From a virus, in IMG/VR virus record IMGVR_UViG_3300047095_000811, positions 32,001 through 96,000 of that record: a DNA stretch of 64,000 nt; one strand, given 5' to 3'. Positions 23,528 to 41,247 of this stretch are shown here, piece after piece. The notes below the pieces were generated by a model. The model saw only the letters and a list, made by a program, of their open reading frames with translations, made no database searches and was not told the DNA's origin. Within the stretch, counting starts at the first letter, position 1; every line of letters begins with the position of its first letter. A program made the translations under genes and the position numbers.

Positions 23528-25111
23528 ATGGCTATCTCCTACGATACCATTCATCAGAGCTCGGTCGGCGTTCGCATTTCCGGCGCTCTGGAAGGTCTGC
23601 AGTCCATCAACGAGGCTTTCCAACAAGAAGGCATCAATGTTCTGAACGAAGGCTTCAGCGAAGTCGCCACCAACTCTCACTTCTTCTCCGACTACGTCGC
23701 GAAGCTGTCCGAGGGCATGGATCCCGAAATCGCTGGTCAGTTCCAGGCCATCGCCAACAACACCCGCACCCAGATCCTGCAAGAAAGCTCGATCTCCGGC
23801 ATCAACCCGATCACCGCTCTGTCCCTGCCGATGCTGCGCGTGGCGTTCCCGAAGACCGCCATCCGTGAAGGCTTCCCGACCGAGCCGGTTCTGCAGCCGA
23901 AGTTCAAGGTGACTTGGCTGAAGCCGTACGTGATCGACTCCGCCAACAACCAGAAGGTCTACATGCCCCTCGGCATCAAGACCAAGAAGTCCCTGTTCAA
24001 GCTGAAGTCCCTGTCCGAGTCCGCAATCGCCGTTGGCGCTTCCGGCGCTGCTGGCGTTGACCTGCTGACCCCGGCTGGCGGCAACTCCGCTCTGGGCGAC
24101 GAGATCGACCCGAACTTCCGCATCGTGGCTGTGACCTTCAAGGCTCTGGACGCTGCTGGTGCCAACGCCGAGAACGTGACTGTCGAGTGCGACCTGCCGC
24201 TGGACACCAACATCGACGTCGTCGAAGGCTCCGTCAAAGGCGCTCACAGCGACAATACCGTCAACACCGTCCGCGTGTTCGCCAAGCTGAACCGCCGCGA
24301 AGGCGAGATGGACGTCGTTGGCCTGGGCCGCGAAGTGGTTTCCATCAAGATCCAGGGCTACATCAGCTCTGAATCCAACAACCGCTCCACCCAAGTCGGC
24401 TTCGACATCACCAGCGACGAGACCGTCATCGGTACCGGCGCTCCGATCGAGTCCCCGATCAACATCCAGCAGATGACCGACACGATGGCGATGTACAACA
24501 TCGACTCCACCGTTCGCACTCTGGAGATCATGTCCACCGCTCTGGCTCAATCCACTGACCTCGAAGGCATCGACTTCTTGGCCAAGAAGTGGTCCCTCGG
24601 CCTGAAGCTGGAGACCTCGTTCGACGTCAACCCGCCGTCCAACTTCACCCTCGGCAACACCGCATGGCGTGAAGAGATGAAGATCAAGATCGACAATCTG
24701 GTGACCCGTCTGATGCAGTCGACGAACATCACCGCTGGTCAGGCCGTGATCTTCGGCAACCCGCTCGACACCCAAGTGCTGCACAACGTTCGTTGGATGT
24801 ACTCCGGCGAAGAGCAGGTGAACGGCGTGAACGTGGAATACCGCGTCGGCTCCTACACCTCCGGTGTGACCACCTACAAGGTGCTGTCCAGCTTCAACTT
24901 CGACCAAGGCGACATGTACGTGTGCTTCCTGCCGTCCGCTCCGGATCAGGCAACCCTGAAGTACTACCCGTACAGCTTCAACGTCGTTCGTGGTACCGCT
25001 TCCCCGAACCATCCCTACACTCCGGCTGTCATGATGCTCAAGCGTCATGTCTTCAAGGAGTACAGCCCGATGATCGGCAAGCTGAAGATCCTGAACAACA
25101 ACGGCCAGTAA
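23528..25111 (+). CDS. Major capsid protein
   Basis: 527 aa with extreme codon bias, a propeptide with L-x-E sites, a gp23-like C-terminus (YYPY...P...MMLKRH), its own promoter and a terminator. Confidence 0.85.
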   Translation: MAISYDTIHQSSVGVRISGALEGLQSINEAFQQEGINVLNEGFSEVATNSHFFSDYVAKLSEGMDPEIAGQFQAIANNTRTQILQESSISGINPITALSLPMLRVAFPKTAIREGFPTEPVLQPKFKVTWLKPYVIDSANNQKVYMPLGIKTKKSLFKLKSLSESAIAVGASGAAGVDLLTPAGGNSALGDEIDPNFRIVAVTFKALDAAGANAENVTVECDLPLDTNIDVVEGSVKGAHSDNTVNTVRVFAKLNRREGEMDVVGLGREVVSIKIQGYISSESNNRSTQVGFDITSDETVIGTGAPIESPINIQQMTDTMAMYNIDSTVRTLEIMSTALAQSTDLEGIDFLAKKWSLGLKLETSFDVNPPSNFTLGNTAWREEMKIKIDNLVTRLMQSTNITAGQAVIFGNPLDTQVLHNVRWMYSGEEQVNGVNVEYRVGSYTSGVTTYKVLSSFNFDQGDMYVCFLPSAPDQATLKYYPYSFNVVRGTASPNHPYTPAVMMLKRHVFKEYSPMIGKLKILNNNGQ

Positions 25112-25164: not shown

Positions 25165-25210
25165 GAGAAGAAAAATAGAGCGCCACTAGGGAATTCCCTA
25201 GTGGCGTCTT
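25165..25210 (-). terminator. Minus-strand intrinsic terminator
   Basis: Perfect inverted repeat CGCCACTAGGG-AATT-CCCTAGTGGCG; T tract on the minus strand. Confidence 0.75.
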
Positions 25211-25413
25211 TGGCGATTCAGTTTGCATATTGGTGCGATCTACTGGAGGAGACCGTTTCCTTGCCCCGGAGGTACGAGAGCAAGGCGAAAGGAGACACGA
25301 TTAAACTTCCCGACCCTGATATGCAAGCATAAGGTCTCGGTCTTGCTCGCGGAAACTATCAAACGCGAGCAACACATCGGCATATGAACCCACACAAGCT
25401 TCCCAGCCGTGCT
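25165..25413 (-). ncRNA. Candidate structured late non-coding RNA (about 250 nt)
   Basis: Own AACA-N6-TA promoter (25413-25424), own terminator, several long helices and a possible pseudoknot; no convincing ORF. Confidence 0.55.
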
Positions 25414-25840
25414 ACTCAGTTGTTCGCAGCAGCTCTGCTCTTGCCTTCATCCGCTTCATGAACTCTCTAGCAAACTTGTCCGATTTTGCCGGAGCCGAAC
25501 AACCGACCGCCTCGGAGAAGAGTGGTAGAGATCGGTTGATTTTTTGGGTTTTAGCCTCGGCCACGTCTCTCCCGTAGACTTTGGCCTTACCAGCGAAATG
25601 GTACCCATATGCCAGCCGATTTCTGCCGAGCTTGACCGAGCTGAACTCCCCGTCGGTGAGAAACCGGCTCATGTACTCGTTGAAGGTCATCGGATTGTAA
25701 TTCGGCTCGATGTCGTCTCGGACAGCGTAGAAGATTTCTCTCAGGTCGTCCACGGTGAAAAACACCCCCATGTTGTGACCTAGGAATTTCTTGATCTCTC
25801 TGGTCAAGACAAAGAACCCAGACAATCGATCATTGCTCAT
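25412..25840 (-). CDS. Hypothetical protein
   Basis: 142 aa ORF with SD GGAG. Confidence 0.65.
   Translation of the reverse strand: MSNDRLSGFFVLTREIKKFLGHNMGVFFTVDDLREIFYAVRDDIEPNYNPMTFNEYMSRFLTDGEFSSVKLGRNRLAYGYHFAGKAKVYGRDVAEAKTQKINRSLPLFSEAVGCSAPAKSDKFAREFMKRMKARAELLRTTE
25413..25424 (-). promoter_or_regulatory. Late promoter AACA-N6-TA with no clear downstream CDS
   Basis: AACA-actgag-TA overlapping the stop codon of the 25412 gene. Confidence 0.6.
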
Positions 25841-35656: not shown

Positions 35657-38095
35657 ATGGCAAAGAAAGATGAAACAAGGCTCCCGCTGAAGGTGAGCCA
35701 GTCCGCCCTCAAGGCTCTTGACCGCATGAAGAAGAGCACCGATACGATCGTGTCCGTGCAATCCGGAGTGACTAAAGAGCTGATGAAGGCGGGTAGCGCA
35801 CTGGACGAGCTCAACCAGAGCATCAACCGGAGCGTCCTCAAGACTTACAACAACTTCGTCGGTCTAGGTCAAGATTTCAATGCGCAGGAAGTCAATCAGA
35901 TCCTCGCGCTGACCCAGAAGAACGCGACTCAGAAGAAGACCGACATGAAGAAGGTCGTCGCCGACTTCAAGAAATCGGTCCAGAGCAACGAGCAGACTCA
36001 AGAGCTGCTCAAGTCTCGCAAGGAGTACAAGGCGAGCCTCTACAGTTCGTACGACCTGATCGTCAGCATCATCCCGAAGATGAGACTGGCGCTGAACACG
36101 ATCACGAACAGCATCATTTCTCCGGATGACTTCTCGAAGCGTTCGATGTCGATCTACTTCGACGACAAGAATCTCGCTCCGCAAGATGCCGAAGAAATTC
36201 GTCGCCGCATGCAGCGCCTGATGGAGAAGTACGGCATCGAGAAGGACCTCAAGGAGGACGTCGTCGATACGCTGGTGAAGGGAGAGAAGTTCTGGGCGAT
36301 TCTGTCCATGAACGAGGAAATCAAATCTCTCCTCAAGGAAAGCGCGACCGAGAAGAACGGAGGGTATCACACCCTTGAAGGGACTTGCTCCTCGATGCTG
36401 AACGAGCACGTCGCCACGGTAGAAGAGACCTGTCTCCTCGACGAGGGCGTCTACCTCTTCTCGGAAGACAAGAGCAAGGCCGACCGCAGTAAGTTCGCCA
36501 GAGATCTCGACGATTTCATCGCCGATAACCTCGTCATCGGGTCTTCCACTCAGTTCCTCGCCGAGCACCAGTCTCTGACGGAAGAGCTTGAGAACTCCGC
36601 AGTCCTCAAGAGCACCCACGAGATGAGAGCTTCCGACCAGACGAAGCGCGAAGGAGACGTGCCGGACACCGCGATCGACGGCCTCCGTTTGGCCTCAGAC
36701 AACGCCATCCTGAAGAAGCTGAAGGCAGACCACGTCGTCAAGCTCGAATACGATGACCGAGTTTATGGTTATGTCTACGTCGATGCCATTGCCATCGACG
36801 AGAAGGATAAGACCGGAAAAGTCAAGAACTCGCCAGCAGAACAAGCCGGGAGCGATCAGAATCTGGTCACTGCCGGGGTGCAGGGCGTACTGTACTCGTC
36901 CTCCGACATCGACAAGGGCGTCACCGGCGAGAAGCGGGCGGTCATCAACGATCCGAAGCTGAAGTACATCGCAGACGTGTTCGTCAACCGTCTGTCGAAG
37001 AAGGAGAACATCCGCCTGCTCAAGAAGTCTGAGCAGCTGAAGCATGCGATCTACCACTCCTTGATCACCAAGCGGATCACGAAGGACGAGAAGATCCGCG
37101 TCGTGTTCTTCACTCCGGACGAGGTTGTCCACATCGACCGCAAGGAATCGATCTTCGACAACGTACTCTTCTTCGCCAAGTTGTACATCGCTACCCTGAT
37201 CACGATCCTGATGCAGAACATCGTTCGTGGCGCGGACAAGCGGGCGTACTACATCGATATCGGTCTGGAGAACGATGCAGCTAACGCCATCAACGGCGTC
37301 ATCCGAGACATCAAGTCCAAGGACCTGACGAACGTTCACAACATGGACATGACGTCCATGCTGAACATCCTCGGCGACTTCAACGACTACTACATCCCCT
37401 CCATCGACGGCGAGAAGCCGATCGAGATCAGCACCGTGGACGGGCTGCAGAATATCTCCCTCGACAACGAGTTCCTGAACTGGTTGTCCAACAACATCTT
37501 CTCTGGGATCGGCCTGCCTGCCGCGTACCTGACCGAAGTCGACAACGTGGACTTCGCCAAGGCGCTCTCCATGCAGAACGCTCGCTTCATCCGCGACATC
37601 GTCTCCGAACAGAACACGTTCGGTTACGGTTACTCGGAGCTCCTGAAGAAACTGTACATGAAGGAGTTCGCAGCAGAGCTCTCCAGCAAGGGCAATGATG
37701 ATGACTCCAACGGCAAAGAGAAGACCACGACTCGTCTCTTCGACGTAGACTCGATCGAGGCGAGGTTCCCCTCCCCGGTGAGCCTGAACATGACCAACCT
37801 CAACGACCAGATCGGCAACCTCACGACGCTGATCGATGCGCTGTCGGAGGTCATTGACGTCAAGTCCGAAGACAAGGACGCTGCGACACCCATCTTCAAG
37901 CGCGAGATGTTCCGCAAGTATCTGCCCAACGTCAACTGGGAGGATGTGGACGGAATCGTCGCGAAGGTGAAGAAGGAGATCCTCACGTCCAAGATCAAGG
38001 CAAAACAGCCCGAAGGCGACGGTTCGGAAGAACCCGACGCTCCTGACGCCACCAGTGCGCCTAGTACCGACGTCAGCATGGACGACATGGAGTAA
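35657..38095 (+). CDS. Portal protein (T4 gp20-like)
   Basis: RGADKRAYYIDIG, DYYIP, IEISTVDG and GLPAAYL parallel gp20 RAPERRIFYIDVG, DYWLP, TEITTLPG and VP.SRL. Confidence 0.85.
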   Translation: MAKKDETRLPLKVSQSALKALDRMKKSTDTIVSVQSGVTKELMKAGSALDELNQSINRSVLKTYNNFVGLGQDFNAQEVNQILALTQKNATQKKTDMKKVVADFKKSVQSNEQTQELLKSRKEYKASLYSSYDLIVSIIPKMRLALNTITNSIISPDDFSKRSMSIYFDDKNLAPQDAEEIRRRMQRLMEKYGIEKDLKEDVVDTLVKGEKFWAILSMNEEIKSLLKESATEKNGGYHTLEGTCSSMLNEHVATVEETCLLDEGVYLFSEDKSKADRSKFARDLDDFIADNLVIGSSTQFLAEHQSLTEELENSAVLKSTHEMRASDQTKREGDVPDTAIDGLRLASDNAILKKLKADHVVKLEYDDRVYGYVYVDAIAIDEKDKTGKVKNSPAEQAGSDQNLVTAGVQGVLYSSSDIDKGVTGEKRAVINDPKLKYIADVFVNRLSKKENIRLLKKSEQLKHAIYHSLITKRITKDEKIRVVFFTPDEVVHIDRKESIFDNVLFFAKLYIATLITILMQNIVRGADKRAYYIDIGLENDAANAINGVIRDIKSKDLTNVHNMDMTSMLNILGDFNDYYIPSIDGEKPIEISTVDGLQNISLDNEFLNWLSNNIFSGIGLPAAYLTEVDNVDFAKALSMQNARFIRDIVSEQNTFGYGYSELLKKLYMKEFAAELSSKGNDDDSNGKEKTTTRLFDVDSIEARFPSPVSLNMTNLNDQIGNLTTLIDALSEVIDVKSEDKDAATPIFKREMFRKYLPNVNWEDVDGIVAKVKKEILTSKIKAKQPEGDGSEEPDAPDATSAPSTDVSMDDME

Positions 38096-38097
38096 AA

Positions 38098-38231
38098 GTG
38101 AAGCCCCCTTACGGATTGACCGTAAGGGGGATTTTCACAGAGATTCTTGGCAGGATTGGCAGATCGGAAGTGACGGAAAGGTAGTCGTCTATGAATTTGG
38201 CCGACAACGCCAATTTCTGCTTCGTATCTCT
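38098..38231 (-). ncRNA. Candidate small late non-coding RNA (about 130 nt)
   Basis: Late promoter at 38231-38242. The predicted +1 AGAGAU pairs with AUCUCU just before the terminator, and internal hairpins are present. Confidence 0.5.
38102..38136. terminator. Bidirectional terminator
   Basis: CCCCCTTACGG-ATTGA-CCGTAAGGGGG. Confidence 0.8.
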
Positions 38232-38242
38232 ATCAGGATGTT
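38231..38242 (-). promoter_or_regulatory. Late promoter AACA-N6-TA with no clear downstream CDS
   Basis: AACA-tcctga-TA downstream of the tail-tube terminator. Confidence 0.6.
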
Positions 38243-38268
38243 CGAATATCCCAACCGACCGTAGTGAC

Positions 38269-38312
38269 AAAAAAGAACCTCAATGGCCCCGAAGGACCAT
38301 TGAGGGTTCTTT
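38269..38312 (-). terminator. Terminator of the sheath-tube operon
   Basis: CCTCAATGG...CCATTGAGG hairpin with a minus-strand T tract. Confidence 0.8.
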
Positions 38313-38323
38313 CCGCGCCTCGA

Positions 38324-39106
38324 TTAGGCCGAAGGAACGCTGGAAGCGTATTCGGACAGGTTGAGGAAGTCGTTCTCGTTGTAGAACTTGTACACCTTGG
38401 AGGTGCTCATCTGGGCGGCTGCGAATGCTTCCACAGCTTGACCGAAGTTCATGTAACCCTTGAACTCCTGCTCGTTCTCAGCGAATTCGTGCGAGCCGGA
38501 TTCGTAGTTGAAGTGTTGCAGGAAGATCTTGGTCGGCATGACGTGGGTGAACAGACAAGCGAACTCGATGTTCGACTTGTCAGCGCCGACGCCGAAGTTG
38601 TCGGCGTCAGGACGGGTCACCACGTAGAGCAGGATGCCGGTGTGGTTGTTGGAGTGGTAAGGCACGTTGTGCTTCTTCGGGTACGTCGCGATGCCGGTCT
38701 TCGGATCGCGGATACCAGAGGTCCACTCGTTGTAGTACTTGGTGATCGGAGCGCCAGACTGCTCTTGGTACTTCAGGGTGAAGCCCTCGGCCTTCTGCAT
38801 GGTGCCCTTCGCGAACGACAGTTCGTTGTTCGTGAAGCCAGCGGTGATCGCGCCGGTATCCAGTTGGATGTCGGACAGACCGCTGAAAGCCTTGAAGTTG
38901 CGCTCGGTCAGCTGCTTGAATTCGGCACCGTTGTCGGCACCGATCCAGTCAGGGACTTTGATCCACTTGATGAAAGCGTAACCGGAAACGTACGGGTCCT
39001 TCATGTTGGCCCCGTGATGAACGTGACCGTTGAAGAACGACTCCTGAGACGGAGTCACGGTGTGGTTCGTCAGGTTCGGTTCGCGGATGAGGTTGGTGTT
39101 TGCCAT
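38324..39106 (-). CDS. Tail tube protein
   Basis: Directly downstream of the sheath; W....DP.TG..Y...Y...PD...F..VMP tube pattern; strong codon bias. Confidence 0.8.
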   Translation of the reverse strand: MANTNLIREPNLTNHTVTPSQESFFNGHVHHGANMKDPYVSGYAFIKWIKVPDWIGADNGAEFKQLTERNFKAFSGLSDIQLDTGAITAGFTNNELSFAKGTMQKAEGFTLKYQEQSGAPITKYYNEWTSGIRDPKTGIATYPKKHNVPYHSNNHTGILLYVVTRPDADNFGVGADKSNIEFACLFTHVMPTKIFLQHFNYESGSHEFAENEQEFKGYMNFGQAVEAFAAAQMSTSKVYKFYNENDFLNLSEYASSVPSA

Positions 39107-39132
39107 AGCTTATTCCTTATCTCTCGACCAGA

Positions 39133-41169
39133 TTAGCGGTTCACGACGAAGTCGATGAAGATACGCTCGATCAGACCGGTGAAGATCATGTCCACGCGAA
39201 CGCGGGCAATCTTCTGTTGACGGTCGTAGTCGGAGGCGTAGACAGCACCGGAGATGGTCTTGCAGGTCCTGTTGGAAACCCACTTCTGCAGGTAGCTGTT
39301 CAGGTTGTAAGACATCGACTCGTGGGTGATCGCGTCGTTGAACTCGTCGCGGTACTCGTCCATCATCGCTTCGACGTCACGCTTGATGCGCATCAGCGCA
39401 CGGACGTTGTTGATGTTGGACAGAGCAGAGTTGACGGTCTGCGCAGTCAGCTGCGTACCGAAGTTGATGCGCTTCGGATCCTTCTCGACGTAGTTGACCT
39501 GCGCCTTGTAGAGGGATTCCTTCCACATCTCGTTCGGGAAGAAGTTGATCTGGTCGAAGCCGGAGATCGTGCCACGGCGGGGGCCGGTGAAGGACCACTG
39601 GACGCCAAACTGCTCGTCGTTTGCCGGAATCTTCTTGGCCAGGAAGTAGGTCATGGTGACCTTGATGTTCTGGCCGGTGTACTCGTCGTAAACCACCGCG
39701 TCTTGGCCGAAAATGGCAGTGCGGAAGTTGGACATGGAGATGGAACCGTGGCGGAAGTCGATCGTCTGCTGGGCGGTCGCTTGGAAGCCGCAGTCGAGGA
39801 TTGCCACGCAGTCTTCGCGCATCACGTCTGCGAACTCGGACATCGCGTTCTTCACGGAAGCCGGGTTGTTGCCGTCGAGCAGCACGTCGAAGAGGTACTG
39901 TTTCTTGTCGAGGATCACGCTGTCGATCTCGGCTTTGTAAGCCTTGTTCAGCAGGGACTCTTCGCTGAAGTCAGCGATCTGAACCCACAGAGCCGGGTTG
40001 GCACCAGTCGGATCGGCAGACTTGTCGTACACCGGACCCCAAGTGCCGTCGTGGCCACCCATCAGGTAGCAGACGTCGGACAGATCGGGAGCGAAAGACA
40101 GAGTCTTCCAGTTGTCCTGATAGTCTTCCGGGTTCGGCACGTCGACGTTGTTGACCTTGGGAGTCGCGAACTTGACGCCTTGGTTGTGGTGGATGGCGGC
40201 AGCGGTGAAGGACGGGGAGGCAGTGCCTTGGCCGGACGCATACACTTGAACGCCAGAACGCTCCTTGCCGAAGAAGACGTCCAGATGCAGCGGGTTGACG
40301 CCGCTGATGTCGGGATCGTGACCGGCAGTGCCATCAACGCCCATGTCGAAGTCGATGATGAAGGAACGAACTTCCTCCATGCGGTCTTCGTACTCGTCGG
40401 CGATGGCGACCTTCAGGAACTTGGAGTACTTGTTCAGCACGTTTGCGAAGAACAGGGACTCGCGGCTGCGATCCTTGGCGGTCTTCTCGAAGGAGACCGT
40501 GTAGGGACCGTCGACAACCACGTCAGCGCCGGTGATGTCCTTGGCGGTGATTTCCAGACCGTAGGTACGGAAGTCGTACGTATTGTCCAGACCGTCCTTC
40601 ACGGACAGGCGGATGCCCATCTTGTTGTACGCCTTGCCACGACCGTACGGGTAGAACACGGCCAGCGGGTACACCTTGGTGGTGGAGGGAACGGGATGGC
40701 CGGTGCCGAGCACGTCGGTCATGGCGGAGGTGTTCGCCATATCCGGTGCGGTGTTGACCAGAGTCTCCATCGCTTCCAGACTAGCGGCGGAAGTGCCGAC
40801 AGTGTTCTTGGAACCGACGTTGGAGATCAGAGGAACAACGGTTTTGGAACCGTTCACGTTGTCCAGACCGAGGGACAGGACGATGTTGGAGTACTCTGCA
40901 TCACCCGGCAGAACACGGATGAAGTAAGCCTCACCGCCTGCGCCCAGCCAGTTGTACACGTTGTACATGGACTGGCCGGTGATCGGCATGTTGGGTTCGC
41001 CGAAGATGAACTTGGCTTCATCCTTGGTGGTGAGTCTTGTCAGAATGTTGTCAGGGCCTTTCACGGCCTTGCCGCATGCGAAAAGAACCGTCGTACCCGC
41101 CGCAGTCTGGAAGACGAACGAGTTGTCGATGATTCTCGAATGCACTGACGGATGCAAATATTCAGGCAT
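39133..41169 (-). CDS. Tail sheath protein
   Basis: YLHPSV N-terminus, KGPDN...FGEP, WSFTGPRRG, LYKAQVNY and INNVRAL...EFND sheath motifs. Confidence 0.92.
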   Translation of the reverse strand: MPEYLHPSVHSRIIDNSFVFQTAAGTTVLFACGKAVKGPDNILTRLTTKDEAKFIFGEPNMPITGQSMYNVYNWLGAGGEAYFIRVLPGDAEYSNIVLSLGLDNVNGSKTVVPLISNVGSKNTVGTSAASLEAMETLVNTAPDMANTSAMTDVLGTGHPVPSTTKVYPLAVFYPYGRGKAYNKMGIRLSVKDGLDNTYDFRTYGLEITAKDITGADVVVDGPYTVSFEKTAKDRSRESLFFANVLNKYSKFLKVAIADEYEDRMEEVRSFIIDFDMGVDGTAGHDPDISGVNPLHLDVFFGKERSGVQVYASGQGTASPSFTAAAIHHNQGVKFATPKVNNVDVPNPEDYQDNWKTLSFAPDLSDVCYLMGGHDGTWGPVYDKSADPTGANPALWVQIADFSEESLLNKAYKAEIDSVILDKKQYLFDVLLDGNNPASVKNAMSEFADVMREDCVAILDCGFQATAQQTIDFRHGSISMSNFRTAIFGQDAVVYDEYTGQNIKVTMTYFLAKKIPANDEQFGVQWSFTGPRRGTISGFDQINFFPNEMWKESLYKAQVNYVEKDPKRINFGTQLTAQTVNSALSNINNVRALMRIKRDVEAMMDEYRDEFNDAITHESMSYNLNSYLQKWVSNRTCKTISGAVYASDYDRQQKIARVRVDMIFTGLIERIFIDFVVNR

Positions 41170-41247
41170 AGTTTCTTTCCTTAAGTGAGAAAGTGTGCAT
41201 AGCTTCCGAAGCCCTTGCACAATGTCAAAGGTTTTGGGATAGCCTTC

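What the first reader, a model, noticed from the sequence alone, without database searches (positions are those of the whole stretch)
38098..38242. Second orphan late promoter: ~130-nt multibranch RNA converging on the portal gene
Seen: an exact AACA-N6-TA site at 38231-38242 (minus strand) lies after the tail-tube terminator, with no ATG-started ORF before the 38102-38130 hairpin. The first six predicted nucleotides (AGAGAU) pair with AUCUCU (38139-38144). Inside are GCAGA/UCUGC, UUGGC/GCCAA and GACG/CGUC helices, three GCCAA copies, and C/U-rich loops (ACCUUUCC, CUUCC) that resemble anti-Shine-Dalgarno sequence. Inference: a small regulatory or structural RNA. With the 25.2 kb element, this places one late RNA beside the capsid gene and one beside the portal gene. 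That recalls phi29 pRNA by analogy only; no homology is claimed.
Basis: partly seen in the sequence, partly recalled or inferred. Interest (0 to 1): 0.75.

Follow-up and report, generated by a model that had tools for sequence, protein, structure and literature searches.

The report
Conserved late small-RNA gene, jumbo phage
Between the tail-tube and portal genes of an uncultivated giant phage related to Bacillus phage AR9 lies what looks like a small stand-alone gene for a folded, protein-less RNA of about 135 bases, kept in its closest relatives but with no transcript seen and no known function.

Summary
AACATCCTGATA(G) at 38231-38242(-) fits this phage's own late-promoter consensus, AACA-N6-TAG. 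That consensus occurs 29 times in the 136.9-kb contig against 6.0 expected, and 20 of the 29 sites lie within 110 nt upstream of an SD-preceded ORF. No ATG lies before the 38104-38130 hairpin.

Three diverged lineages (window, L002, L003=L004) share one layout: tube terminator, AACA-N6-TAG, an 88-124 nt protein-less rod hairpin whose 5' end is paired, then a two-way hairpin beside the portal stop. All seven fixed promoter letters are kept although four-fold sites are only 46-53% identical. Seven more distant relatives, AR9 included, have a single shared hairpin there and no insert.

The fold is a rod plus terminator, not multibranch. The fold signal is moderate (z -2.8, -4.2, -0.5).

Best reading: a clade-specific late small non-coding RNA gene. 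An exposed CCUUUCC loop hints at ribosome-binding-site pairing, but a target test was no better than shuffles. No transcript was seen, no Rfam family matches, and nothing supports the phi29 pRNA analogy.

This scan has noted the same kind of unit in other AR9-like phages. It is a new member of a known kind.

The parts
38324..39106 (-). Tail-tube gene (260 aa), the upstream neighbour
   Evidence: phrog_21257, E 9e-83. 48.6% identical to phiR1-37 g150 and 45.5% to the AR9 virion protein. RNA contigs of three riverine metatranscriptomes cover it.
38268..38305 (-). T1, the tube gene's own intrinsic terminator (12-bp stem, tail TTCTTTTTTG)
   Evidence: Terminator scan. L002 and L004 have an equivalent hairpin at the same place.
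38230..38242 (-). Late promoter AACATCCTGATAG; predicted +1 is A at 38231
   Evidence: Searches show the motif is enriched and lies upstream of genes. AACATAAATATAG in L002 and AACATACCTATAG in L003/L004 sit at the same place. The AR9 rule AACA-(6N)-TA/G, with the last base as TSS, is from passages of PMC5312081 and PMC5449584.
38139..38231 (-). Rod-like imperfect hairpin, RNA nt 1-93. Helices are AGAGAU/AUCUCU, GCAG/CUGC, AUUGGCG/UGCCAAU, GUCGG/CCGAU and GACG/CGUC
   Evidence: Folds. L002 has the same helix order with different sequences in four of five helices. L004 is a longer rod whose 5' end is also paired.
38175..38185 (-). Apical loop ACUACCUUUCC(G) carrying the exposed pyrimidine tract CCUUUCC
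   Evidence: P(unpaired) 0.97 for CCUUU. It aligns with CCTTTTTC of L002, whose UCCUU lies in its apical loop (P(unpaired) 0.85).
38096..38130 (.). T2, an 11-bp hairpin CCCCCTTACGG/CCGTAAGGGGG 8 nt after the portal stop. It probably acts as a two-way terminator, ending both the portal mRNA and the small RNA
   Evidence: The scan calls it a terminator on the minus strand (tail CTTCACTTTT). The plus-strand tail is ATTTTCAC. Distant relatives have a single hairpin shared by tube and portal. Window and L002 differ by 4 compensatory pairs.
35657..38095 (+). Portal gene (812 aa), the converging neighbour
   Evidence: phrog_3004 E 9e-56 and phrog_213 (portal) E 9e-16. The AR9 counterpart g128 is annotated 'portal vertex protein'.

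Best explanation
This is a stand-alone late gene for a small non-coding RNA of about 135 nt.

Proposed working, step by step:
- The phage's non-virion multisubunit RNA polymerase starts at A38231 from an AR9-type late promoter (AACA-N6-TAG). Inferred from motif and conservation; not shown.
- It transcribes 93 nt that fold into a long imperfect rod whose first six bases are locked in the closing helix. Predicted fold.
- It stops at the hairpin that also ends the converging portal mRNA. Inferred.
- The unit was inserted, together with a separate tube terminator, between the tube gene and an ancestral shared two-way terminator, in the lineage leading to the window phage, L002 and L004. Shown by comparison.
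- The paired 5' end and the 3' hairpin should make the RNA stable.
- The exposed pyrimidine loop at the tip (CCUUUCC; UUCCUU in L002; CUCCUUA in L004) is the most likely working part. It would pair with purine-rich ribosome-binding regions (GAAAGG/AAGGA type) of phage or host messages late in infection. This last step is the weakest: I put it at about one in four.
For: Promoter:
- The site fits the contig's own consensus: 29 AACA-N6-TAG sites against 6.0 +/- 2.3 expected. Of the 29, 20 lie within 110 nt upstream of an SD-preceded ORF of at least 40 aa, and 5 more lie at 125-280 nt.
- The same motif precedes the homologous virion-protein and sheath genes in L002 and L004.
- The phage encodes jumbo-phage RNA polymerase beta-like proteins: phrog_14872 E 0 and phrog_2986 E 7e-99.
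- AR9 late promoters are AACA-(6N)-TA/G with the last base as TSS. This was confirmed in vitro with purified nvRNAP (passages of PMC5312081 and PMC5449584).

Conservation:
- All 3 of 3 close lineages (window; L002; L003 = L004, with 0 differences in the spacer) have T1, AACA-N6-TAG, a rod and T2 in the same order.
- Four-fold sites of the adjacent tube gene are only 46-53% identical.

Absence in distant relatives:
- 7 of 7 more distant relatives in which tube and portal converge (L014, L015, L017, L009, L179, L181, AR9) have one hairpin and no motif. The unit is therefore an added module, not spacer.

Structure:
- z -2.8 for the window and -4.2 for L002.
- The 5' end pairs with the segment just before T2 in all three.
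- Between window and L002, helix 3 is identical and helices 1, 2, 4 and 5 are paired with different sequences.
- Among 28 late transcripts of the contig, this is the only one with all six first bases paired to a partner beyond nt 50. Its z ranks fourth.

Coding and known families:
- There is no conserved peptide in six frames, no ATG and no SD.
- No Rfam family or tRNA matches.
Against: - No transcript has been seen. Logan contigs of three riverine RNA runs cover the tube gene but not the spacer, which says nothing either way.
- Only three lineages were available, so covariation cannot be tested statistically.
- The L004 rod is no more stable than shuffles: z -0.5, with 83 of 300 shuffles as good.
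- Folding does not favour the sense strand in the window (-26.8 sense against -30.4 antisense) or in L004.
- T2 has a broken U-tract on the minus strand (CUUCACUUUU), so termination may be partial.
- The target test failed. Duplex energies of the apical 34 nt with 233 putative translation starts had mean -15.24, against -14.68 +/- 0.91 for shuffled cores, and best -30.0 against -29.2 +/- 3.2.
- No complementarity longer than 11 nt exists in the 137-kb contig. That contig is only about half the genome (CheckV 52%).
Confidence: 0.6

Rival explanations
1. Antisense or 3'-overlap control of the portal gene. The promoter's purpose is to send polymerase into the portal terminator from the wrong side. 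Read-through would give RNA antisense to the portal 3' end. Alternatively, the small RNA and the portal mRNA overlap over the shared hairpin and are cut or stabilised together.
For: - T2 has a poor U-tract on the minus strand (CUUCACUUUU).
- A second terminator-like hairpin lies about 100 nt further on, inside the portal antisense, at 38009-38028.
- In AR9, seven late promoters drive antisense transcription (passage of PMC5312081).
Against: - In L002 the same hairpin has a good U-tract on the small-RNA strand (AUUUCUUUUAC).
- A conserved rod with a paired 5' end is not needed for plain antisense transcription.
- Distant relatives manage the same converging junction with one hairpin and no promoter.
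Confidence: 0.15
2. Leftover or accidental promoter without a function of its own. It would be the remains of a lost small gene, or a neutral spacer that happens to keep the motif.
For: - About 6 of the 29 consensus sites in the contig are expected by chance.
- The body of the unit diverges at about the neutral rate.
- The L004 rod is not significantly stable.
Against: - All seven fixed promoter letters are kept in three lineages whose four-fold sites are 46-53% identical. At about 0.5 per pair, that is roughly 6e-5 by chance.
- The chance of one oriented site in a 228-nt spacer is about 0.005.
- A spacer of about 200 nt is retained in three lineages, while relatives have about 50 nt.
- The conserved blocks ATTGGCGTTG and GCCAATC pair with each other.
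Confidence: 0.12
3. A tiny protein gene. It would be a TTG-started peptide of 30-34 aa read from the frame the first reader noted (MALSAKFIDDYLSV... in the window), ending inside T2.
For: - One frame is open from the promoter to T2 in all three lineages.
- Window and L002 both begin TTG GCG TTG, and their lengths between the conserved blocks differ by 9 nt, a multiple of three.
Against: - There is no ATG and no Shine-Dalgarno, in a phage where the genes behind late promoters carry AAGGA-type sites.
- The three peptides share nothing beyond what the conserved nucleotides dictate.
- At least one open frame of about 33 codons in three is expected about half the time by chance (my estimate).
- PHROGs gives no hit for the 53-aa ORF.
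Confidence: 0.05
4. A structural or packaging RNA working with the portal, analogous to phi29 pRNA.
For: Only position (beside the portal gene) and late timing. A second orphan unit lies beside the capsid gene.
Against: - No Rfam family matched at E up to 10.
- The unit is missing from 7 of 7 more distant relatives that have homologous portals.
- G001 also lacks the capsid-side unit.
- These phages carry an ordinary large terminase (AR9 and phiR1-37 annotation).
- An essential packaging part would not be clade-specific.
Confidence: 0.03

Closest known systems
Late (non-virion RNAP) promoters and orphan/antisense late transcripts of Bacillus phage AR9 (Lavysh et al. 2017, PMC5312081; Sokolova et al. 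2017, PMC5449584; passages read)
   Same: - The promoter core AACA-N6-T(A/G) is the same, with the last base as the start.
- The phage group is the same: tube, sheath, portal and RNAP beta-like proteins are homologous.
- AR9 also has late starts that serve no gene (seven antisense).
   Different: - Here the consensus is extended by G at +2 (26 of the 48 gene-proximal AACA-N6-T[A/G] sites; every one of the 29 TAG sites by definition).
- The genome is about 54% GC, against AR9's 28% (AU 72.25% in PMC5449584).
- AR9 has no unit at this junction; its spacer is 51 nt.
- No transcript data exist for this phage.
Intergenic promoter-to-terminator sRNAs of phiKZ-like jumbo phages found by ONT-cappable-seq (201phi2-1: 11 sRNAs, 3 of them intergenic; PMC11512511, passages read)
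   Same: - A short unit (under 250 nt) with its own start and a terminator, and no CDS.
- Conserved by position next to a virion gene among related giant phages.
- Function unknown.
   Different: - A different phage group and promoter type.
- Those RNAs were seen experimentally; this one is predicted only.
- No sequence relationship has been tested or claimed.
C/U-rich-loop base-pairing sRNAs that mask Shine-Dalgarno sites (RsaE/RoxS type of Firmicutes; recalled from general knowledge, not from a call)
   Same: An exposed pyrimidine tract in a hairpin loop, complementary to GGA-rich ribosome-binding sites.
   Different: - No Rfam match.
- No target better than chance.
- The element is phage-encoded, and the loop motif is CCUUUCC rather than a CCCC run.
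phi29 pRNA
   Same: A small phage RNA; gene position near head and portal genes.
   Different: - No Rfam family matched.
- The unit is not conserved across the phage group.
- No feature of pRNA was found.

Membership tests
AR9-type late (nvRNAP) promoter | AACA at -11 to -8, T at -1 and A or G at +1 | tested here: met
   AACATCCTGATA at 38242-38231(-). The rule is from PMC5312081 and PMC5449584.
AR9-type late (nvRNAP) promoter | The motif is enriched and sits upstream of late/virion genes in the same genome | tested here: met
   29 sites against 6.0 expected. 20 of 29 lie within 110 nt upstream of an SD-preceded ORF. It precedes the sheath and virion-protein genes in the window, L002 and L004.
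AR9-type late (nvRNAP) promoter | The phage encodes split multisubunit RNAP beta/beta'-like subunits | tested here: met
   phrog_14872 (E 0) and phrog_2986 (E 7e-99), both labelled 'RNA polymerase beta subunit'. Weak Pfam Rpb2_6 and Rpb1_2 matches lie below cut-off. Which of the two polymerases these belong to was not resolved.
AR9-type late (nvRNAP) promoter | Transcription actually starts there late in infection; template-strand deoxyuridine is required | not testable with these tools
   The phage is uncultivated. The RNA contigs do not cover the spacer.
Stand-alone small non-coding RNA gene (promoter-to-terminator unit) | Own promoter and own terminator less than 250 nt apart, with no credible ORF | tested here: met
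   Promoter at 38231-38242. T2 is called a minus-strand terminator. No ATG or SD, and no conserved peptide.
Stand-alone small non-coding RNA gene (promoter-to-terminator unit) | Conserved in relatives, with structure kept by compensatory change | tested here: inconclusive
   The layout is kept in 3 of 3 close lineages. Helices 1, 2, 4 and 5 differ in sequence but pair in both window and L002. Three sequences are too few for a covariation test, and L004 has z -0.5.
Stand-alone small non-coding RNA gene (promoter-to-terminator unit) | A discrete transcript is detected | not testable with these tools
   Only assembled contigs of RNA runs were available, and none covers the spacer.
SD-masking C/U-rich-loop sRNA | Exposed pyrimidine tract complementary to ribosome-binding sites | tested here: met
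   CCUUU P(unpaired) 0.97 in the window, UCCUU 0.85 in L002, and only 0.28-0.45 in L004.
SD-masking C/U-rich-loop sRNA | Pairing with translation-start regions better than chance, or a conserved target | tested here: not met
   Mean duplex energy -15.24 against -14.68 +/- 0.91 for shuffled cores over 233 putative starts. No complementarity longer than 11 nt.
phi29 pRNA | Match to the curated RNA family model | tested here: not met
   No Rfam family reached E 1 in 37500-39000; the best four hits had E 3.7-5.6 and none was pRNA. None reached gathering score in the window, L002 or L004.
phi29 pRNA | Essential packaging part, hence present throughout the phage group | tested here: not met
   Absent from 7 of 7 more distant relatives with the same junction.

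The most novel reading that the evidence does not exclude
AR9-like jumbo phages may carry a so far undescribed class of late, nvRNAP-driven small RNAs.

- They would be stable rods or hairpins with a paired 5' end that display a copy of the ribosome's anti-Shine-Dalgarno tail (CCUUUC).
- They would act together late in infection to mask or titrate ribosome-binding sites of early phage or host messages.
- This unit would be one of at least four or five such genes in this phage: G000 22961(-), 57412(-), 70230(-), 99975(+) and perhaps 96261(-).
- CCTTTC occurs in 4 of these 5 units, against 0.24 expected. The word was chosen post hoc.
- AI notes of this scan describe like units in at least seven other AR9-like genomes (unchecked here).
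Probability: 0.15. Interest if true: 0.75.

Novelty: new member of a known kind. Interest (0 to 1): 0.45.

Why it matters
- Small RNAs of lytic phages are barely explored. In jumbo phages they have so far been catalogued only by transcript mapping in phiKZ-like phages, and no function has been assigned.
- This unit gives a clean, comparative case in the AR9-like group: a promoter kept under clear selection that serves no protein gene.
- It appears as a discrete insertion into an otherwise conserved tube-portal junction.
- If the RNA is made, it offers a simple handle for asking what late phage sRNAs do: delete about 110 nt, or express it in trans.
- Together with the sibling units in the same genome, it makes the idea of RNA-level control of translation late in infection testable.
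- If it is not made, it is still a useful warning that consensus promoters can be conserved for reasons other than driving genes.

Tried and rejected
1. Expression evidence. The look-up of sequencing runs listed 20 runs. I laid X5, X7 and X9 (riverine RNA) and X3 on 37400-39200. The RNA contigs cover 38331-39085 (the tube gene) and the start of the sheath gene at depth 2-4. Nothing covers 38096-38323. All were assembled contigs, so a gap proves nothing, and this is not used as evidence either way.

2. More relatives.
- The metagenome scan gave four close contigs (L005-L008), all ending within 40 nt or less after the tube gene, so without the spacer.
- Two genome-contig scans found nothing.
- Four further IMG/VR protein scans added no close lineage.

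3. DNA pattern ATTGGCGTTG-N30-60-GCCAATC in IMG/VR. 0 of 119 had AACA-N6-TA within 45 nt upstream, so these are chance matches.

4. RNAalifold on the MAFFT alignment of window and L002. It recovered only helix 3 and the terminator, because MAFFT misaligns the diverged helices. I compared helices from single folds instead. No covariance model was built.

5. Target search. Duplex energies with 233 putative starts were no better than shuffles. In a blastn-short search of the contig, the best hit was 18 of 20 nt at E 0.83. It has the same sense as the 5' coding region of a minus-strand gene at G000 96883-97548, so it is not a target and is at chance level.

6. Strand preference of the fold: none in the window or L004.

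7. Plus-strand ORF 38191-38364 (57 aa, behind a GGAAAGG). It is not conserved in L002 or L004 and is rejected.

8. Rfam and ARAGORN: nothing.

9. Literature. Three searches listed no paper on anti-SD small RNAs of AR9-like phages. I claim nothing wider than that. Supplementary tables S2 and S3 of PMC5312081, which list all AR9 late starts, were not open to me. They may show whether AR9 has comparable orphan units elsewhere.
Full report
WHAT THE WINDOW IS

The window is part of a 136,853-bp virus contig (G000; window = 32001-96000). CheckV puts the contig at about 52% complete, and its GC is about 54%. The proteins place it among the AR9/PBS1/phiR1-37-like jumbo phages:
- The 260-aa protein at 38324-39106(-) is 48.6% identical to phiR1-37 g150 and 45.5% to the AR9 virion protein next to the sheath (phrog_21257).
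- 39133-41220(-) is the tail sheath, and 35657-38095(+) is the portal (phrog_3004 and phrog_213).
- 23528-25111(+) is the major head protein. Two ORFs are jumbo-phage RNA polymerase beta-like subunits.
- No cultured close relative exists in the phage collection: megablast found nothing, and the best protein identity was below 50%.

Tube and portal converge. The finding lies in the 228-nt spacer between them (38096-38323).

THE OBSERVATION

- AACATCCTGATA, followed by G, is at 38242-38231 on the minus strand, after a strong tube terminator (stem 38278-38305, tail TTCTTTTTTG).
- No ATG occurs on that strand before the 11-bp hairpin at 38104-38130.
- From A38231 the RNA folds so that nt 1-6 (AGAGAU) pair with nt 88-93 (AUCUCU, 38139-38144).
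- The inner helices are GCAG/CUGC, AUUGGCG/UGCCAAU, GUCGG/CCGAU and GACG/CGUC, and the apical loop is ACUACCUUUCC.
- The fold is one long imperfect rod followed by the terminator hairpin, not a multibranch structure.
- The rod alone has -26.8 kcal/mol, z -2.65 (6 of 200 shuffles as good) and z -2.80 (3 of 300).

IS THE PROMOTER REAL?

The AR9 papers give the late consensus as A(-11)ACA-(6N)-U-A/G(+1), with the last base as the start. It was mapped in vivo and confirmed with purified non-virion RNAP (passages of PMC5312081 and PMC5449584). In this contig the motif is sharper.
- AACA-N6-TAG occurs 29 times, against 6.0 +/- 2.3 (maximum 12) in 200 dinucleotide shuffles.
- 20 of the 29 sites lie within 110 nt upstream of an ORF of at least 40 aa that has an AGGA-type Shine-Dalgarno. 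Five more lie at 125-280 nt, and four have none. One of those four is at the contig end and one is this site.
- The same motif precedes the homologous virion-protein and sheath genes in the relatives L002 and L004.
- The chance rate of 2.2e-5 per position per strand gives about 0.005 for one oriented site in this spacer.

RELATIVES

Scans of IMG/VR, JGI metagenomes and GTDB genomes gave only two further close lineages that include the spacer.
- L002: tube 81% and portal 69% identical.
- L003 = L004: tube 76% and portal 57% identical, with 0 differences between them in the spacer.
- Four close metagenome contigs (L005-L008) stop within 40 nt after the tube gene.

In both lineages the order is the same as in the window: tube stop, its own terminator, AACA-N6-TAG (AACATAAATATAG in L002, AACATACCTATAG in L004), 88-124 nt without a gene, then a strong hairpin directly beside the portal stop.

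Four-fold degenerate sites of the adjacent tube gene are only 46-53% identical between the three, so neutral positions are close to saturation. All seven fixed promoter letters are nevertheless kept in all three, which points to selection on the promoter.

In every more distant relative where tube and portal converge, the two genes share one hairpin in a short spacer with no promoter motif. This holds for L014, L015, L017 and L009, L179 and L181, and AR9 itself with a 51-nt spacer: 7 of 7. The unit is therefore a module added in one clade, consisting of a new tube terminator, a promoter and a rod. It was placed in front of the ancestral two-way terminator, which now also closes the new unit.

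STRUCTURE ACROSS LINEAGES

- The L002 rod (88 nt) folds at -30.2 kcal/mol, z -4.1 to -4.2, with 0 of 200 and 0 of 300 shuffles as good.
- The L004 rod (124 nt) folds at -37.7 kcal/mol, z -0.4 to -0.5, which is not significant.
- In all three, the bases at or next to the predicted start (nt 1-6, 2-5 and 2-5) pair with the segment just before the terminator.
- Window and L002 have five helices in the same order. Helix 3 (AUUGGC/GCCAAU) is identical. Helices 1, 2, 4 and 5 have different sequences but are paired in both.
- Their alignable conserved blocks are ATTGGCGTTG, CCTTT..TCA, GCCAATC and TGT.AAAATC. The first and third of these pair with each other, and the second is the apical loop.
- Among the first 100 nt of 28 late transcripts of the contig, this one has the fourth lowest z. 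It is the only one with all six first bases paired to a distant partner.

Limits:
- Three sequences do not allow a covariation statistic.
- RNAalifold on the MAFFT alignment recovers only helix 3 and the terminator.
- The antisense strand folds about as well in the window and L004, so the strand is assigned by the promoter and not by the fold.

NOT A PROTEIN, NOT A KNOWN RNA

- Six-frame translation of the three spacers shows no shared peptide.
- One frame is open from promoter to hairpin in each lineage, and window and L002 both have TTG GCG TTG. However, there is no ATG and no Shine-Dalgarno, in a phage whose genes carry AAGGA-type sites.
- The three 30-34-aa products are unrelated. An open frame of that length in one of three frames is expected about half the time.
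- PHROGs has nothing for the 53-aa ORF.
- Rfam gives nothing at gathering score in the window, L002 or L004, and only E 3.7-5.6 noise in 37500-39000. ARAGORN finds no tRNA.

HOW IT MOST LIKELY WORKS

Shown:
- A consensus late promoter under selection.
- A protein-free, foldable body.
- A terminator-type hairpin on the right strand.
- Clade-specific insertion.

Inferred:
- The non-virion RNAP starts at A38231 and ends near 38096, giving an RNA of about 135 nt.
- The paired 5' end and 3' hairpin make that RNA stable.

The best candidate for the active part is the apical pyrimidine loop.
- CCUUU has P(unpaired) 0.97 in the window. UCCUU is 0.85 in L002 but only 0.28-0.45 in L004.
- It is complementary to the GAAAGG/AAGGA ribosome-binding sites common in this phage.
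- The hexamer CCTTTC occurs in 4 of 5 orphan late units of the contig, against 0.24 expected. I chose the word after seeing it, so this is a hint only.

Against a specific role: pairing of the apical 34 nt with 233 putative start regions is no better than for shuffled cores, and no complementarity longer than 11 nt exists in the half genome at hand. I therefore commit to 'late small non-coding RNA gene' at about 0.6, and to 'acts by pairing its loop with ribosome-binding regions' at about a quarter of that.

RIVALS

- Antisense or 3'-overlap control of the portal is possible because T2 has a broken U-tract on this strand. L002 has a good one, however, and the conserved rod is not explained (0.15).
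- A functionless leftover is hard to square with the promoter's conservation at near-saturated divergence, and with the retention of about 200 nt where relatives have about 50 (0.12).
- A micro-protein (0.05) and a pRNA-like packaging RNA (0.03) have little or nothing in their favour.

CONTEXT AND NOVELTY

- AR9 itself has late starts that serve no gene: seven antisense (PMC5312081).
- ONT-cappable-seq found 11 short sRNAs in the phiKZ-like phage 201phi2-1, three of them intergenic and one conserved by position next to a tail gene (PMC11512511).
- First-stage and follow-up notes of this scan describe the same kind of orphan late promoter-to-terminator unit, several with anti-SD tracts, in at least seven other AR9-like genomes. 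They also list this very site among three candidates in this genome. These are AI notes. I checked only the ones in this contig.
- The unit is thus a new member of a kind that is known in outline but not understood.

No expression data could be obtained. RNA contigs of three riverine metatranscriptomes cover the tube gene but not the spacer, which is uninformative.

Noticed in passing
window 25168-25424 (-): This is the '25.2 kb element'. AACAACTGAGTAG at 25412-25424 has a TAG that is the stop codon of the 142-aa ORF 25412-25840(-). About 245 nt without a credible ORF follow, then the unit's own terminator (about 25180-25208 plus a T-run), then a second hairpin beside the stop of the converging major head gene (23528-25111+). 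The whole layout, including a shared CACCAATATGCA block, is kept in L050 (the record of L002). It is absent from L051 (the record of L004), where a gene starts there instead.
   Followed up: partly
G000:C1:22684-22973 (-), i.e. 9 kb before the window: An AACA-N6-TAG site followed by an RNA of about 285 nt. Its first 15 bases pair with the last 15 before a U-tract. MFE is -127.8 kcal/mol. It lies outside the window and was not screened against Rfam.
   Followed up: partly
G000:C1:99975-100070 (+) and G000:C1:96110-96272 (-), beyond the window end: Two more late-promoter-to-terminator units. The first is 84 nt, with two hairpins, an exposed UCCUUUCUUUUCC tract and a terminator; it stands in front of an SD+ATG of a 472-aa gene, so it may be a leader or attenuator. 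The second is about 150 nt and GGA-rich, behind a TAC-variant promoter.
   Followed up: partly
whole contig G000: The late consensus here is AACA-N6-TAG, with G at +2. This is sharper than AR9's AACA-N6-TA/G. The TG variants lie mostly inside coding sequence. The genome is about 54% GC, unlike AT-rich AR9. Whether its DNA carries uracil cannot be told from sequence.
   Followed up: partly
L005-L008 (JGI metagenome contigs): Four independent short contigs of close relatives (tube 70-74% identical) all end within 40 nt or less after the tube stop codon. Assemblies may tend to break at this hairpin-rich spacer.
   Followed up: no
L002:5010-5090 (antisense of the portal 3' end): The portal gene of L002 ends with three tandem copies of a unit of about 27 nt (GCTAGAATCTCCTCCGCTATCTCCTAC). 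This is a repeat expansion in the C-terminal tail that the window's portal lacks.
   Followed up: no
window 38331-39200: Contigs from three riverine metatranscriptome runs of different studies match the tube gene and the start of the sheath gene at 95-100% identity, but not the portal part of the stretch laid. This is consistent with the phage, or a very close strain, being active in rivers as well as in lake water. DNA carry-over cannot be excluded.
   Followed up: no
window 38009-38028 (-): A second minus-strand terminator-like hairpin (TCCGAACCGTCGCCTTCGGG plus CTGTTTTG) lies inside the antisense of the portal 3' end, about 100 nt beyond T2. It could catch read-through from the orphan promoter, or it could be chance.
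   Followed up: no
AR9 (L024) g125-g128: The AR9 paper says antisense RNAs are most abundant for g125 and g126. By the original numbering these are the virion protein and the tail sheath, just upstream of the tube (g127) and the converging portal (g128). This is the same neighbourhood as the present unit, but on the other side and in the other direction.
   Followed up: partly
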